Shown here one piece after another: positions 12,404 to 15,946 of a stretch of DNA of 40,732 nucleotides. Source of the DNA: a virus; the UHGV virus genome UHGV-0045958, one strand, 5' to 3'. The translations under genes were made by a program, and so were the position numbers. The notes under the pieces were generated by a model that saw only the letters and a list, made by a program, of their open reading frames with translations, made no database searches and was not told the DNA's origin. Positions within the stretch are counted from its first letter, which is position 1, and each line of letters starts with the position of its first letter.

Positions 12404-12784
12404 ATGACTGAACGCATAGAATTTGTTTTGCCTTACCCGCCGACGGTGAATACCTACTGGCGACGTCATGGCAATACGTATTTCATCTCGGAGGCCGGAA
12501 AGCGTTATCGCCGTGATGTGGCGCTAATTGTTCGCCAGCAGCGGCTGAAATTAAACCTGTCCGGAAGGCTGGCGATAAAGGTGATTGCAGAGCCACCGGA
12601 TAAGCGTCGTCGCGACCTGGACAATATCCTGAAAGCACCGCTGGATGCGCTGACGCATGCGGGAGTGTTAATGGACGATGAGCAGTTTGATGAAATCAAT
12701 ATCGTTCGTGGTCAGCCAGTATCTGGTGGACGTCTGGGGGTGAAGATTTACCCCATAATGCATGAAGAGCAGGTCAAAAAATGA
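12404..12784 (+). CDS. rusA: RusA Holliday junction resolvase
   Basis: 126 aa with RusA-like motifs (YPPTVNTYWR ... DKRRRDLDNILKAPLDALTHAGVLMDDEQ). Confidence 0.85.
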   Translation: MTERIEFVLPYPPTVNTYWRRHGNTYFISEAGKRYRRDVALIVRQQRLKLNLSGRLAIKVIAEPPDKRRRDLDNILKAPLDALTHAGVLMDDEQFDEINIVRGQPVSGGRLGVKIYPIMHEEQVKK

Positions 12785-13602
12785 AACTGGAAGATTTACC
12801 GAAATACTACTCCCCAAAATCCCCTGGCCTGACCGATGCATCGGCCTCAACGTCAAAAGATGCGCTGAGTATCACTGATGTGATGGCCGCGCAGGGCATG
12901 ACACAGAATCGGGCTGAGATGGGGTTTTCTGCGTTCCTGGGGAAAATGGGCATCAGTATGAATGACAGGGCGCGGGCAACAGAATTACTGGCAGATTATG
13001 CACTCAGTCGGTGCGATCGTGTTGCGGCGTTGAGAAAACTTCCGGCAGAAATAAAACCGTTAGTGATGCGCATTATGGCTTCGTACGCTTTTGAGGATTA
13101 TGCCCGCAGCGCAGCGAGTAAAAAGCAGTGCCCTTGTTGCTATGGGGAAAAATTTATTGAAAGCGTAGTTTTTACAAACAAGGTCCAGTATCCGGATGGT
13201 AAGCCGCCGGTATGGGCAAAGTGTACGAAAGGTGTGTATTCGTCTTACTGGGAAGAATGGAAAAAAGTCAGGGAGGTGGTAAAAGTTGCCTGTCCGGAGT
13301 GTGGCGGAAAGGGTGAGGTTTCCACCGCCTGTAAGGATTGCCGTGGGCGTGGTGTCGCCATTCATCGTGAAGAGTCGGTAAAACGTGGTATGCCTGTTAT
13401 CAGAGACTGCCAGCGTTGTGGTGGTCGTGGCTATGAAAGACTACCATCAACGGAGACATTTAATGCTATATGCGAGGTGACAAACCAGATAACACGCGCG
13501 TCATGGGAAAAAACAGTTAAGAAATTCTATGATGCGCTGGTGACCCGGTTTGATATTGAAGAAGCATGGGCTGAGCGGCAGTTAAAAAAGGTAACTAGGT
13601 AA
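12781..13602 (+). CDS. late-gene antiterminator Q-like protein (QuuQ-type, Cys-rich)
   Basis: 273 aa with several CxxC pairs (CPCCYGEK, CPECGGKGE, CKDCRGRG, CQRCGGRG); immediately upstream of a pR'-like promoter and tR'. Confidence 0.7.
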   Translation: MKLEDLPKYYSPKSPGLTDASASTSKDALSITDVMAAQGMTQNRAEMGFSAFLGKMGISMNDRARATELLADYALSRCDRVAALRKLPAEIKPLVMRIMASYAFEDYARSAASKKQCPCCYGEKFIESVVFTNKVQYPDGKPPVWAKCTKGVYSSYWEEWKKVREVVKVACPECGGKGEVSTACKDCRGRGVAIHREESVKRGMPVIRDCQRCGGRGYERLPSTETFNAICEVTNQITRASWEKTVKKFYDALVTRFDIEEAWAERQLKKVTR

Positions 13603-13607
13603 CAAGG

Positions 13608-13635
13608 TTGATTTTTCCGGAATCTGTGGTAAATT
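13608..13635 (+). promoter_or_regulatory. late promoter pR'-like (TTGATT-N16-TAAATT)
   Basis: -35 TTGATT at 13608-13613 and -10 TAAATT at 13630-13635, directly after the Q stop; resembles lambda pR' (TTGACT/TAAATT). Confidence 0.55.
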
Positions 13636-13684
13636 CGTCATAATAATGGGCTTTTTATGCCTGACGTTAGAAGAGTTTCTACAA

Positions 13685-13706
13685 CCCGCCGCCGAGCGGG
13701 TTTTTT
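13685..13706 (+). terminator. tR'-like intrinsic terminator (end of a short 6S-like late leader RNA)
   Basis: CCCGC-cgccga-GCGGG followed by TTTTTT, about 45 nt downstream of the predicted pR' start. Confidence 0.55.
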
Positions 13707-13745
13707 ATTGCGGAATTAATTACGGACCGTTATTATTCTACTCCC

Positions 13746-13821
13746 GGCCCTTTAGCTCAGTGGTGAGAGCGAGCGACTCATAATCGCCAGGTCGCTGGTT
13801 CAAATCCAGCAAGGGCCACCA
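13746..13821 (+). tRNA. ileZ: tRNA-Ile2 (CAU anticodon; ileX/ileZ-like), possibly tRNA-Met
   Basis: 76-nt cloverleaf GGCCCUU..AGCUCAGUGGUGAGAGC..CUCAUAA..GGUCGCUGGUUCAAAUCCAGCAAGGGCCACCA with encoded CCA; very similar to recalled E. coli ileX. Confidence 0.8.
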
Positions 13822-13919
13822 TCACAAACCGCCATTAGCTTATCAGGAAGAGCAGACGACACGATAACAGGGTTGTTGGTGCGGGGGCGGGTCCCCGATG
13901 GCGGTCCATTATCGGTATT

Positions 13920-13995
13920 CAGCGTTGTTAGCTCAGCCGGGCAGAGCAATTGCCTTCTAAGCAGCTGTGGTTGCACTCCTGTTGTTTCTGGTGGT
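13920..13995 (+). pseudogene. degenerate tRNA-Arg(UCU)-like remnant
   Basis: The 5' half resembles argU (UUAGCUCAG D-arm, anticodon loop CUUCUAA), but the T-arm and 3' acceptor strand do not form. Confidence 0.3.
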
Positions 13996-14163
13996 GATGG
14001 TGGACTTCAGCAGCCGGATAATGTCGGTGCTGTCTGATGGTGTTTTGGTGGCGGGTGTGTGGTTGTTGCTTTCCCGTTGCTGAAAAAGAAAGCATCAGGC
14101 GATTAGCAGGGTATCAGTTACCCGTTGAAATTTTTAAATACCTCACAATTCCACAGCTTGATG

Positions 14164-14364
14164 ATTGTCTGGCTGCCGGAGAATTTGTTAAAAATTACAT
14201 CGCATGGTGAATCCCCCTCAGCGGCGGGGCATCTGGCAAAGTGTATGATCCAGAGAACATGCAAATTCAGTAGACAGGCTGAATTTACCGGGAGGCCCCT
14301 GGCACCATGCGACAGACAGAAATTAGGCTATACTTCAGCCCCTCTCCGGAGGGGCTTTTCTGTG
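14164..14364 (+). repeat. structured terminator-capped element, copy A (candidate sRNA or late-leader element)
   Basis: Shares with copy B a promoter-like 5' block, the gcatggtg/caccatgc long-range complement, a ccgggaggc block and an identical AGCCCCTC-tccg-GAGGGGCT terminator followed by a T-tract. Confidence 0.5.
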
Positions 14365-14632
14365 CAGGATGTGTCACAGTTTCCTGAATTCTGAGTACTG
14401 TCCTGTTACTCAGGGTGCTATATTTTCTGACGTGATGAAAGTCTGCCGGAAGGCGGAACGTATCGGAAATGACCCAGTAGAGAAAACGTTGACTCAGATA
14501 CCGATGCTGAGTTACCGGGAAACCGGCATCACATGACCGCTATCCTTCCAGGCTCGCTCCGGCGGGCCTTTTTACTGCAGAAAACAGTTTTCCCGTAAAA
14601 TGCCACGTTGCTCATAATTCAGGCTGGCGATT

Positions 14633-14830
14633 ATTGTCTGGCCGGCGGGAAGTTTGTTAAAAAATTTCGCATGGTGAATCCCCCTGTGCGGAGGGGTAAT
14701 CAGCGAGTAGGTATATGGGATAATCGCGGATTCAGGTGCTGGTACTGAATTCACCGGGAGGCACCCGGCACCATGCAATGGCACATAGCGCCACTCTCCA
14801 GCCCCTCTCCGGAGGGGCTGTTTATATTGA
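14633..14830 (+). repeat. structured terminator-capped element, copy B
   Basis: Imperfect duplicate of copy A with the same terminal hairpin (14800-14819). Confidence 0.5.
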
Positions 14831-14854: not shown

Positions 14855-15190
14855 TTATGGACTTTGTTGTTTTAGTCCATAAGGACATATTTGCAGAATG
14901 CAACGGTTATTAAAGCATTCATTCAATACGTTATCTGTATTTGTAGGGCATTCCTGGCTGTTTTTGATTAAATTCCAGAATGTTTTATTGAATGGTACTA
15001 CGTTGTAAATGGTTACAGGTAGCACTTTGTTATTGAGCATGATACCTGTGTGAGTCAGTGTAAATATACTTTCAGGAGGTAAGAAAGCATCCGATTGATA
15101 CCAGATTATTAATTTTACTTTACTCCATATGACTGAAAAAGATATTCCGCATGATGGCTGGATAACTGTATCAATTACAATCCACTTCAT
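14855..15190 (-). CDS. hypothetical protein (AT-rich moron, 111 aa)
   Basis: Reverse-strand ORF in a markedly AT-rich island; AAGGAAG RBS 5 nt upstream of ATG; 11-bp inverted repeat ccttatggact/agtccataagg (14853-14884) at its 3' end. Confidence 0.5.
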
Positions 15191-15450
15191 TTAGCTTCCT
15201 TGTTTATGCCTTGCTGGTGATGTTCTGAAAAGTATAAATGATATTTTTGAATATAAACCATAGAGCAGAATTATTTTTCTGATGTTGTTTATTGTTTATT
15301 TAAATGCAGGGTGGTTTATATCTCGTCTTGTAGTTTATCCATGCATATCTGCTTGATGATCAGGTTTCTATTTAAGGTATGGTTTTGTGTTTTTTCTGTG
15401 TTACATGTCTGGTATTTTAAAGAATTATTTTTCAGATGGTGGAAAGAACC

Positions 15451-15639
15451 ATGGCATTTAAACACTATGATGTTGTCAGGGCGGCGCCGCCGTCAGATCT
15501 TGCGGAAAAGCTGACACATAAACTGAAAGAGGGCTGGCAGCCGTTTGGTAGTCCGGTGGCCATAACCCCTTATACCCTGATGCAGGCGATTGCAGCAGAA
15601 GGTGATGTGGTGGTCAGTGGTGCAACTGAGCCGGAGTGA
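15451..15639 (+). CDS. small hypothetical protein upstream of the holin
   Basis: 62-aa product MAFKHYDVVRAAPPSDLAEKL...; GGAAAG RBS-like sequence 7 nt upstream of ATG 15451; track ORF starts at 15436. Confidence 0.5.
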   Translation: MAFKHYDVVRAAPPSDLAEKLTHKLKEGWQPFGSPVAITPYTLMQAIAAEGDVVVSGATEPE

Positions 15640-15946
15640 TACTACGTCATCGTACTGGCCCGGCATTCCAGACCATAAAAGACGGTCTGGCAGTGGGACT
15701 AAATGCACTGACGCTGACGGATATTACCAAAAATGCAACGTATGGCGTTGAGATAGAAAGTCTGGTGCTGGAGATAAATACACCGGCATCATCATAAAAA
15801 GTGAGCCAGTCAAATGGAAGGTATCGTTAAACTCACCGGTAGTGTCAGTGGATCGTCTGAGACGCTTGCATGAGTTATCAGAGCCATCAGTAGTTAACTG
15901 GTGGCTTTTTTATTGTTGTCAGCTTCCGGATAACGGGAGACGGGGT

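What the first reader, a model, noticed from the sequence alone, without database searches (positions are those of the whole stretch)
13603..13995. Stx-phage-like Q - pR' - tR' - tRNA module, but with no toxin genes
Immediately after Q lie a lambda-like late promoter (TTGATT-N16-TAAATT), a tR'-like terminator, an ileX/ileZ-like tRNA-Ile2(CAU) and a decayed tRNA-Arg(UCU)-like remnant. This is the arrangement that precedes stxAB in Stx phages; here the cargo is instead the structured repeats and the AT-rich ORF. The decayed second tRNA suggests cargo turnover at this site.
Basis: partly seen in the sequence, partly recalled or inferred. Interest (0 to 1): 0.45.

Follow-up and report, generated by a model that had tools for sequence, protein, structure and literature searches.

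The report
Prophage late-gene switch with tRNA cassette
This is the ordinary late-gene control region of a common E. coli lambda-like prophage: an antiterminator gene, its promoter and terminator, then a small tRNA cassette of which one tRNA is intact and two are dead. Shiga-toxin phages carry the same cassette just before their toxin genes, but it is present, without toxin, in many more non-toxin prophages.

Summary
Directly after a lambda-family Q gene (12781-13602) lie:
- a late promoter pR' (TTGATT-N16-TAAATT, 13608-13635) with a lambda-like pause element (AATAAT-GGG, 13642-13650);
- a terminator tR' (13683-13706);
- an intact tRNA-Ile2(CAU) (13746-13821), identical to ileZ of Stx phages;
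- tRNA remnants.

Three corrections and additions:
- There are two remnants. One is an argN pseudogene (13829-13908). The other is the first 42 nt of argO (13922-13963), cut by a deletion rather than decayed.
- The tRNA cassette has its own conserved promoter (TTGCGG-N17-TATTAT, 13708-13736). It has lost its own terminator.
- STnc100 and the IraM-like ORF are not replacement cargo, because they also lie downstream of stxB in Stx phages. The slot that holds stx is between argO and STnc100. In the window it holds only a 5'-truncated tciB/DUF3927.

Relatives fill this slot with nothing, tciA-tciB, an unknown ORF, a methylase-like gene or stx2AB, so cargo turnover is supported.

Of 120 viral contigs with this ileZ, only 8 carry stx. 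The exact junction occurs in 321 of 5426 complete E. coli genomes. The module is a known kind and of low interest.

The parts
12781..13602 (+). Q late-gene antiterminator, lambda-Q family, 273 aa
   Evidence: Pfam PF03589 Antiterm, E 1.2e-54. Full-length tblastn match to lambda Q, 28.5% identity, E 9e-28. PGAP names it 'antitermination protein'.
13608..13635 (+). pR' late promoter: -35 TTGATT (13608-13613), 16-nt spacer, TGg-TAAATT -10 (13630-13635)
   Evidence: Sequence read. Same layout as lambda pR' TTGACT-N17-TAAATT. Conserved position in 13 loci with Q relatives.
13642..13650 (+). Predicted transcription start and -10-like pause element AATAAT followed by GGG (sigma-dependent pause and Q-loading site, by analogy with lambda AACGAT-GGG)
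   Evidence: Exactly 6 nt after the -10 hexamer in the window, in lambda and in all 13 relatives. Unique in the window, 0.04 expected by chance.
13642..13706 (+). Predicted short constitutive pR'-to-tR' leader RNA, about 65 nt (counterpart of lambda 6S RNA and of StxS)
   Evidence: Inferred from the promoter and terminator positions. Relatives give 54-71 nt. No Rfam family reaches its gathering score there.
13683..13706 (+). tR' intrinsic terminator: hairpin 13683-13702 then T6
   Evidence: Terminator scan. Fold (-11.2 kcal/mol). An equivalent hairpin plus T-run in the 11 relatives folded.
13708..13736 (+). Dedicated promoter of the tRNA cassette: TTGCGG (13708-13713), 17-nt spacer, TATTAT (13731-13736), 9 nt before the tRNA 5' end
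   Evidence: Unique in the window, 0 in 100 shuffles. 115 of 116 IMG/VR loci keep TTGnnn-N16/17-TAnnnT at this position in several unrelated upstream contexts. A transcription start site that appears to drive the tRNAs was mapped in Sakai Stx2a phage (PMC7547250).
13746..13821 (+). Intact tRNA-Ile2 (anticodon CAU, ileZ/ileX type, CCA encoded)
   Evidence: ARAGORN. Rfam tRNA 72.5 bits. 76/76 identical to Stx2a phage ileZ, 68/76 to K-12 ileX, 54/76 to metT. C4-G69 and C5-G68 as in ileX. PGAP names it tRNA-Ile.
13829..13908 (+). argN pseudogene: acceptor and D arms kept, anticodon arm replaced, T loop altered
   Evidence: Alignments. Not called by ARAGORN or Rfam. Fold has a 3-nt loop where the anticodon loop should be, z-score -0.96. 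The same allele is in phiP27 and in E. coli L005.
13922..13963 (+). Truncated argO: nt 1-42 of tRNA-Arg(UCU), ending just after the anticodon loop
   Evidence: Alignments. blastn argO[1-42/77]. The 3' half and the cassette terminator (L003 3306-3325) are missing.
13967..14083 (+). 5'-truncated tciB/DUF3927 ORF (38 aa, GTG start created at the deletion junction)
   Evidence: Pfam PF13064, E 5.8e-11, profile positions 11-39 of 53. phrog_1470 positions 10-43 of 54. The full-length 54-55 aa gene, preceded by TerB-like tciA, is in L032, L063, L104 and L077.
14172..14365 (+). First STnc100 sRNA copy. It marks the resumption of the backbone shared with Stx phages and carries the first terminator after the tRNA promoter
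   Evidence: Rfam RF02076, 138 bits. Terminator 14337-14356. The shared backbone sequence AAATACCTCACAATTC starts at 14136.

Best explanation
The region is the late-gene antitermination switch of a Qin-like lambdoid E. coli prophage, followed by a partly destroyed copy of the mobile ileZ-argN-argO tRNA cassette.

How it most likely works:
- pR' fires constitutively.
- RNA polymerase pauses at the -10-like AATAAT-GGG element, about +16/+17 (inferred).
- Without Q, transcription stops at tR' and gives an RNA of about 65 nt.
- With Q, made after induction, polymerase becomes terminator-resistant. It reads through tR', the tRNA block, the three STnc100 terminators and on into the holin, lysis and structural genes.

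The tRNA cassette is an independent insert whose left edge is at about 13706-13708. It has its own sigma-70-type promoter, so tRNA-Ile2 is probably also made in the lysogen. After lysidine modification by host TilS the tRNA would decode the rare AUA codon. AUA is about twice as frequent in this prophage as in the host, and very frequent in its accessory genes.

argN is a pseudogene. argO was cut in half by a deletion that also removed the cassette terminator, a TerB-like tciA gene and the 5' end of tciB.

The site between argO and STnc100 is a cargo ('moron') slot. In different relatives it is empty or holds tciAB, an unknown ORF, a methylase-like gene or stx2AB.

Shown here: the sequence features, their homology and their conservation. 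Inferred: promoter activity, the pause, Q dependence, and tRNA modification and use.
For: - Q family.
- pR' and pause element: same geometry as lambda. Conserved in 13 loci whose Q proteins are 40-98% identical, while the flanking sequence is not conserved. Unique in the window.
- tR'. Equivalent hairpins of -11 to -17 kcal/mol in the 11 relatives folded, giving leaders of 54-71 nt.
- tRNA promoter: 115 of 116 loci, in contexts after tR', after a methylase gene and others. Unique in the window. A published transcription start site lies between tR' and stx2 and appears to drive the tRNAs (PMC7547250). The same promoter sequence is present in Sakai Sp5.
- tRNA-Ile2 identity.
- Remnants.
- Cassette terminator present in Stx2a_WGPS2 and absent here.
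- Deletion junction and its tciA-tciB ancestor.
- Slot contents in 76 loci: 35 empty, 18 with an unknown ORF (about 625-700 nt), 13 with tciAB, 1 methylase-like, 7 stx2AB, 2 longer non-stx inserts.
- A Stx2 contig with the same Q-pR'-tR' directly next to the cassette.
- STnc100 downstream of stx2B.
- Codon use in the 99.9%-identical M217 prophage, per 1000 codons: ATA 8.1, AGA 5.6, AGG 5.7; iraM-like ORF 45 ATA per 1000.
- Frequency: the 2.9-kb region at >=80% coverage in 967 of 5426 complete E. coli genomes, and the junction in 321.
Against: - No expression data for this prophage. Both promoters fall below the threshold of the simple consensus scan (8 of 12).
- The published transcription start site for the tRNAs was mapped in a different phage, and I did not see its exact coordinate.
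- The prophage uses AGA and AGG heavily yet has lost both Arg tRNAs. The benefit of the cassette is therefore dispensable, and the codon-supply rationale is weak.
- The host codon frequencies used for comparison (about 4 ATA, 2 AGA and 1 AGG per 1000) are from memory, not computed here.
- The IMG/VR sample was chosen by an exact 47-mer and capped at 120 contigs with many near-duplicates. The counts are not prevalence estimates.
Confidence: 0.85

Rival explanations
1. The prophage is a former Stx phage that lost stxAB, and the truncated argO is the scar of toxin loss.
For: The tRNA block is 86-91% identical to that of Stx phages. A Stx2 contig shares the same Q-pR'-tR' type. The deletion starts exactly where the cargo slot begins.
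Against: The sequence on the right of the junction is the interior of tciB. In relatives tciB follows tciA, not stx. In Stx phages stxB is followed after 75 nt by STnc100 with no tciB. There is no stx remnant. 112 of 120 contigs with this ileZ lack stx. An older stx-bearing history cannot be excluded.
Confidence: 0.07
2. The CAU tRNA is an elongator tRNA-Met, as ARAGORN and many phage annotations call it, not tRNA-Ile2.
For: ARAGORN labels it tRNA-Met from the anticodon. Many GenBank phage records annotate the same gene as tRNA-Met (PMC7946995).
Against: 68/76 identity to K-12 ileX against 54/76 to metT. The acceptor-stem pairs C4-G69 and C5-G68 are shared with ileX and differ in metT/metU; that these pairs are TilS determinants is my own knowledge. 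PGAP, the phiP27 record and the Sakai annotation all call it tRNA-Ile / ileZ.
Confidence: 0.04
3. The tRNA and tRNA-like sequences are remnants of a bacterial integration site (attB hot spot) captured during prophage insertion, not phage cargo.
For: A recent preprint reads tRNA hits near prophage STnc100/Pas sRNAs as integration hot spots (10.64898/2026.05.13.724894).
Against: The block lies inside the prophage between Q and the holin, about 13 kb from the integrase end. It is in the same internal position in deposited phage genome records such as phiP27 and the vB_EcoS phages. It carries its own conserved promoter and, when intact, its own terminator.
Confidence: 0.02
4. One or both 'remnants' are functional non-canonical RNAs, for example a tRNA-like processing signal or regulator, kept by selection.
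For: The argN pseudogene still folds into a cloverleaf-like shape with an intact acceptor stem. The same allele is 99-100% identical in many contigs, and a close variant of it is in phiP27.
Against: The fold is not better than shuffled sequence (z -0.96). The argO half folds worse than shuffles (z +1.05). Neither reaches any Rfam threshold. Their conservation equals that of the flanking DNA. Loci with argN intact, pseudo or absent all exist.
Confidence: 0.05

Closest known systems
Phage lambda Q / pR' / 6S RNA / tR' late antitermination module
   Same: Q of the same Pfam family, PF03589. Promoter immediately after Q with a TAAATT -10, then a -10-like hexamer plus GGG exactly 6 nt downstream. 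An intrinsic terminator that ends a short constitutive RNA.
   Different: Q is 273 aa and only 28.5% identical to lambda Q. The spacer, which is the presumed Q-binding element, is unrelated. The leader is about 65 nt instead of lambda's roughly 194 nt (the lambda figure is my own knowledge; the sequence is). tRNA genes follow tR', which lambda lacks.
Stx2a phage Sp5/933W-type region: Q - pR' (StxS) - tR' - ileZ-argN-argO - stx2AB - STnc100
   Same: Same order of elements. ileZ is identical. The same tRNA promoter TTGCAG/TTGCGG-N17-TATTAT is present. STnc100 lies downstream. The pR'-tR' RNA of Sp5 is the characterised sRNA StxS (PMC7547250).
   Different: Sp5 has a different Q (144 aa, Q933 type) and a longer leader. 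A methylase-gene remnant lies between tR' and the tRNA promoter. All three tRNAs and the cassette terminator are intact. stx2AB occupies the slot. In the window argN is a pseudogene, argO is truncated, and the slot holds only a tciB fragment.
Stx2e phage phiP27: ileZ - (argN pseudogene) - argO - stx2e
   Same: Best match among Stx-phage records to the tRNA block (91.5%). It carries the same argN pseudogene allele, so only ileZ and argO are annotated.
   Different: In phiP27 argO is intact, stx2e follows it, and the cassette follows a DNA methylase gene rather than tR'.
E. coli chromosomal ileX/ileY (tRNA-Ile2, lysidine-modified CAU)
   Same: 68/76 identical. Same anticodon loop and the same acceptor pairs 4-69 and 5-68.
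   Different: Phage-borne. 8 substitutions, including the 6-67 pair (U-A instead of C-G) and the anticodon-stem top pair. Modification and charging were not tested.

Membership tests
Lambdoid Q-dependent late antitermination module (Q-lambda family) | Q protein belonging to PF03589 | tested here: met
   E 1.2e-54. Full-length similarity to lambda Q.
Lambdoid Q-dependent late antitermination module (Q-lambda family) | Promoter just downstream of Q with a -10-like pause-inducing hexamer in the initial transcribed region | tested here: met
   TAAATT-N6-AATAAT-GGG. Same geometry in lambda and in 13 relatives. Chance expectation 0.04. This is sequence evidence only.
Lambdoid Q-dependent late antitermination module (Q-lambda family) | Intrinsic terminator shortly downstream of the promoter, upstream of the late genes | tested here: met
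   Hairpin 13683-13702 plus T6.
Lambdoid Q-dependent late antitermination module (Q-lambda family) | Q-dependent read-through of tR' in vivo or in vitro | not testable with these tools
   Needs a reporter fusion or in-vitro transcription.
tRNA-Ile2 (ileX/ileZ type) | Canonical tRNA with a CAU anticodon | tested here: met
   ARAGORN. Rfam 72.5 bits.
tRNA-Ile2 (ileX/ileZ type) | Closer to tRNA-Ile2 than to tRNA-Met, with the ileX-type acceptor pairs C4-G69 and C5-G68 | tested here: met
   68/76 against 54/76. Alignment. PGAP tRNA-Ile. The role of these pairs as TilS determinants is from my own knowledge.
tRNA-Ile2 (ileX/ileZ type) | Lysidine at C34 and charging with isoleucine | not testable with these tools
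   Needs tRNA mass spectrometry or aminoacylation assays.
ileZ-argN-argO phage tRNA cassette | Three intact tRNA genes with their own promoter and terminator | tested here: not met
   The promoter and ileZ are intact. argN is a pseudogene. argO is cut at nt 42 and the terminator is lost. This is a degraded copy of the cassette.
Stx-converting prophage | stxA and stxB between the tRNA cassette and the lysis genes | tested here: not met
   tblastn best hit E 0.36. The slot 13964-14135 holds a tciB fragment.
STnc100 sRNA (RF02076), context element | Score above the Rfam gathering threshold | tested here: met
   138 and 132.5 bits against a threshold of 47. A third copy scores 30 bits, below threshold.

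The most novel reading that the evidence does not exclude
Two readings are not excluded.

(1) The constitutive pR'-tR' RNA of about 65 nt (13642-13706) may be a trans-acting regulatory sRNA of the lysogen, as StxS is in Stx phages. Its first ~27 nt are conserved among Q relatives only 40% identical.

(2) The loss of the argO terminator may place the tciB fragment and the first STnc100 copy under the constitutive tRNA promoter. That would rewire expression of a prophage sRNA in the 321 complete E. coli genomes that share this junction.
Probability: 0.15. Interest if true: 0.35.

Novelty: already known. Interest (0 to 1): 0.15.

Why it matters
It matters little as a discovery. The module is the textbook lambdoid late switch plus the phage tRNA cassette long known from Stx phages, and this exact sequence is present and annotated in hundreds of E. 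coli genomes.

Three points are useful:
- The stx genes occupy one well-defined cargo slot (argO terminator to STnc100). Most relatives leave this slot empty or fill it with other accessory genes, which helps in reading Stx-phage evolution and stx-negative look-alikes.
- The tRNA cassette is a self-contained unit with its own promoter and terminator. tRNA hits next to prophage sRNAs should therefore not be read as integration sites.
- The CAU tRNA is widely mis-annotated as tRNA-Met.

Tried and rejected
- The simple sigma-70 scan flags neither pR' nor the tRNA promoter, because both score 8 of 12. I relied on comparative conservation instead.
- RNAalifold on the 12 terminator segments gave no structure because MAFFT misaligned the 3' arms. 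I replaced it with single-sequence folds.
- Literature searches for ileZ/argN/argO found nothing relevant in the held library. The classical 933W and phiP27 papers are therefore cited from memory only.
- One search term was rejected by the tool.
- A Rfam hit of the leader to Trp_leader (25.7 bits, below the threshold of 41) and an antisense 'Plastid-ycf2' hit on the tRNA were dismissed as terminator or tRNA look-alikes.
- Small ORFs overlapping the remnants (13646-13783 +, 13800-13976 -, 13873-14037 +) were dismissed as spurious.
- The M217 locus was first assumed identical to the window. It is 99.9% identical with small indels, so the codon counts refer to that near-identical prophage.
- Rejected readings: an ex-Stx phage, an attB remnant, tRNA-Met, and functional tRNA-like remnants (see the rival explanations).

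Full report
**What is there.**
The window is a complete Qin-like lambdoid prophage of E. coli. It runs from int and xis through dicB, hokD, DUF968, rusA and Q, then the lysis, head and tail genes. It is 99.9% identical to a prophage of strain M217.

The 2.9 kb from Q to DUF1737 is found at >=80% coverage in 967 of 5426 complete E. coli genomes, many at 100% identity. It is also found in the deposited phage records vB_EcoS-640R1 and vB_EcoS-813R8.

**Q, pR' and tR'.**
- ORF 12781-13602 is a Q-lambda-family antiterminator: PF03589, E 1.2e-54, and 28.5% identical to lambda Q over its full length.
- Five bases after its stop codon lies TTGATT (13608-13613), then 16 nt, then TGgTAAATT (13630-13635).
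- Six nt after that lies AATAAT-GGG (13642-13650).
- Lambda pR' reads TTGACT-N17-TAAATT-N6-AACGAT-GGG. AACGAT there is the known -10-like element that induces the sigma-dependent pause where Q loads (my own knowledge).
- I fetched 16 loci encoding Q relatives from species-representative genomes. In 13 of them (Q 40-98% identical) the same geometry follows the Q stop: TTGnnn, 16-17 nt, TAnnnT, 6 nt, AAYRAT-RGG. The spacer sequences differ between Q subgroups, as expected for a Q-specific binding element.
- The composite pattern is unique in the window, with 0.04 expected by chance.
- The terminator hairpin 13683-13702 plus T6 is called by the scan and folds at -11.2 kcal/mol. The 11 relatives folded have an equivalent hairpin (-11 to -17 kcal/mol) that gives leaders of 54-71 nt.
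- I therefore accept pR' and tR' on sequence and comparative grounds. Activity, pausing and Q dependence are inferred.

**The tRNA.**
- 13746-13821 is a canonical tRNA with anticodon CAU (ARAGORN; Rfam 72.5 bits).
- It is 76/76 identical to ileZ of Stx2a phage WGPS2, 68/76 to K-12 ileX and 54/76 to metT.
- It shares the ileX acceptor pairs C4-G69 and C5-G68.
- PGAP, the phiP27 record and the Sakai annotation all call it tRNA-Ile / ileZ.
- The frequent 'tRNA-Met' label comes from reading the anticodon alone.

**Two remnants, not one.**
- 13829-13908 is an argN pseudogene. The acceptor and D arms are kept, but the anticodon arm is replaced and the T loop altered. It is not called by ARAGORN or Rfam. 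It folds with a 3-nt loop in place of the anticodon loop and no better than shuffled sequence. The same allele is in phiP27, which explains why that phage has only ileZ and argO annotated. It is also in E. coli L005.
- 13922-13963 is argO nt 1-42 with one mismatch. Homology ends abruptly after the anticodon loop.

**An overlooked promoter and a lost terminator.**
- Homology with Stx phages begins at 13706, right after the tR' T-run.
- It starts with TTGCGG (13708-13713), then 17 nt, then TATTAT (13731-13736), 9 nt before the tRNA 5' end. This pattern is unique in the window.
- Among 116 IMG/VR contigs with enough upstream sequence, 115 keep TTGnnn-N16/17-TAnnnT at this position. They do so whether the cassette follows tR', a DNA-methylase gene or other sequence, including contexts where the spacer sequence itself differs.
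[quoted passage not shown] Sakai Sp5 has the same TTGCAG-N17-TATTAT element.
- Intact cassettes end in their own terminator 14 nt after argO (L003 3306-3325). The window has lost it.
- The first terminator after the tRNA promoter is therefore that of STnc100 at 14337-14356. Read-through to that point is an inference.

**Relation to Stx phages and the cargo slot.**
- In phiP27, Stx2a_WGPS2 and Sakai Sp5 the order is tRNA promoter, ileZ, argN or its pseudogene, argO, terminator, stxAB, STnc100. STnc100 begins 75 nt after stx2B.
- A 77%-identical iraM-like ORF follows STnc100 in two Stx contigs.
- STnc100 and the AT-rich ORF are therefore backbone, not a substitute for stx. The AT-rich ORF is an IraM-family protein: NF007393, 162 bits against a cutoff of 121.
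Only 8 encode StxA.
- One of those, L052, has a Q 88% identical and a pR'-tR' 91% identical to the window, directly abutting ileZ-argN-argO-stx2AB. One deposited Stx2a phage, Stx2_EH1910, has this Q type.
- In 76 contigs with an intact argO and a downstream STnc100, the interval between them falls into these classes:

| Interval | Content | Contigs |
|---|---|---|
| 75-150 nt | empty | 35 |
| about 625-700 nt | unknown ORF of 115-118 aa (phrog_2873) | 18 |
| 775-825 nt | TerB-like tciA plus full-length 54-55 aa tciB/DUF3927 | 13 |
| 1125 nt | N6-methylase-like ORF | 1 |
| about 1400 nt | stx2AB | 7 |
| about 1425 nt | longer non-stx inserts | 2 |

**The window's junction.**
- To the right of 13963 the sequence aligns with the interior of tciB in L032 and L063.
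- The 38-aa ORF 13967-14083 covers only profile positions 11-39 of 53 of DUF3927, and positions 10-43 of 54 of phrog_1470.
- The window is therefore a deletion derivative of a tciAB-bearing arrangement. It has lost the argO 3' half, the cassette terminator, tciA and the start of tciB.
- The identical junction is present in an E. albertii prophage that still has an intact argN, in IMG/VR contigs with different upstream contexts, and in 321 of 5426 complete E. coli genomes. About 1650 further genomes match only the argO half, meaning they have an intact argO.
- The junction is an old event that has been spread by recombination among mosaic prophages.
- No trace of stx exists in the window.

**Codon context.**
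In the near-identical M217 prophage, ATA is 8.1, AGA 5.6 and AGG 5.7 per 1000 codons. ATA is concentrated in accessory genes, for example 45 per 1000 in the iraM-like ORF. From memory, E. coli averages about 4, 2 and 1 per 1000. The tRNA-Ile2 could help AUA decoding. However, the prophage has lost both Arg tRNAs while still using AGA and AGG heavily, so the cassette is dispensable.

**Verdict.**
- It is wrong about which sequences are the cargo and about how the second Arg tRNA was lost.
- It missed the argN pseudogene and the cassette's own promoter.
- The whole arrangement is a known kind, common in E. coli and already annotated. Interest is low.
- The only mildly novel possibilities left open are an StxS-like role for the 65-nt leader RNA and rewired expression of STnc100 from the tRNA promoter after the terminator loss.

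Noticed in passing
window 14172-14365, 14401-14576, 14641-14829: Two full STnc100 sRNA copies (138 and 132.5 bits) sit in tandem with a degenerate third copy between them (30 bits, below the gathering score of 47). Each ends in an intrinsic terminator. Most relatives have a single copy. Any late transcript must read through all three terminators.
   Followed up: partly
window 14855-15190 (- strand): The AT-rich ORF is an IraM-family anti-adaptor (NF007393, E 4.7e-48, above cutoff; phrog_4407). It is antisense to the late operon and has 45 ATA codons per 1000. A prophage copy could stabilise RpoS in the lysogen. Pfam finds nothing.
   Followed up: partly
L145 3123-3382 (Sakai Sp5, downstream of stx2B): In the archetypal Stx2a prophage, STnc100 (207.7 bits) lies 75 nt after stx2B, with the anti-sRNA AsxR on the opposite strand immediately after it. 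The window has no AsxR or AgvB match.
   Followed up: partly
L016 (contig binned as a Veillonella parvula MAG): This contig carries an Escherichia-type Q, pR' and tR'. Over the ~180 nt compared after the Q stop it is identical to the E. ruysiae locus L015. It is probably a mis-binned Enterobacteriaceae prophage contig.
   Followed up: no
bioRxiv 10.64898/2026.05.13.724894 compared with window 13708-13963: The preprint treats tRNA hits near prophage Pas/STnc100 sRNAs as signs of integration hot spots. In this window the tRNA sequence next to STnc100 is the phage-internal ileZ-argN-argO cassette, with its own promoter and far from the attachment sites.
   Followed up: partly
L020 3950-4026 (Entomohabitans teleogrylli): A distant Q relative (47% identity) also has a tRNA-Arg(UCU) about 40 nt after its tR'. 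tRNA genes may therefore have been placed at this position more than once.
   Followed up: no
window 15436-15639 and 15636-15797: PGAP marks the DUF1737 gene as a partial pseudogene, followed by a 53-aa hypothetical ORF. In Stx phages this region is followed by the large nanS-p esterase gene, which is absent here.
   Followed up: no
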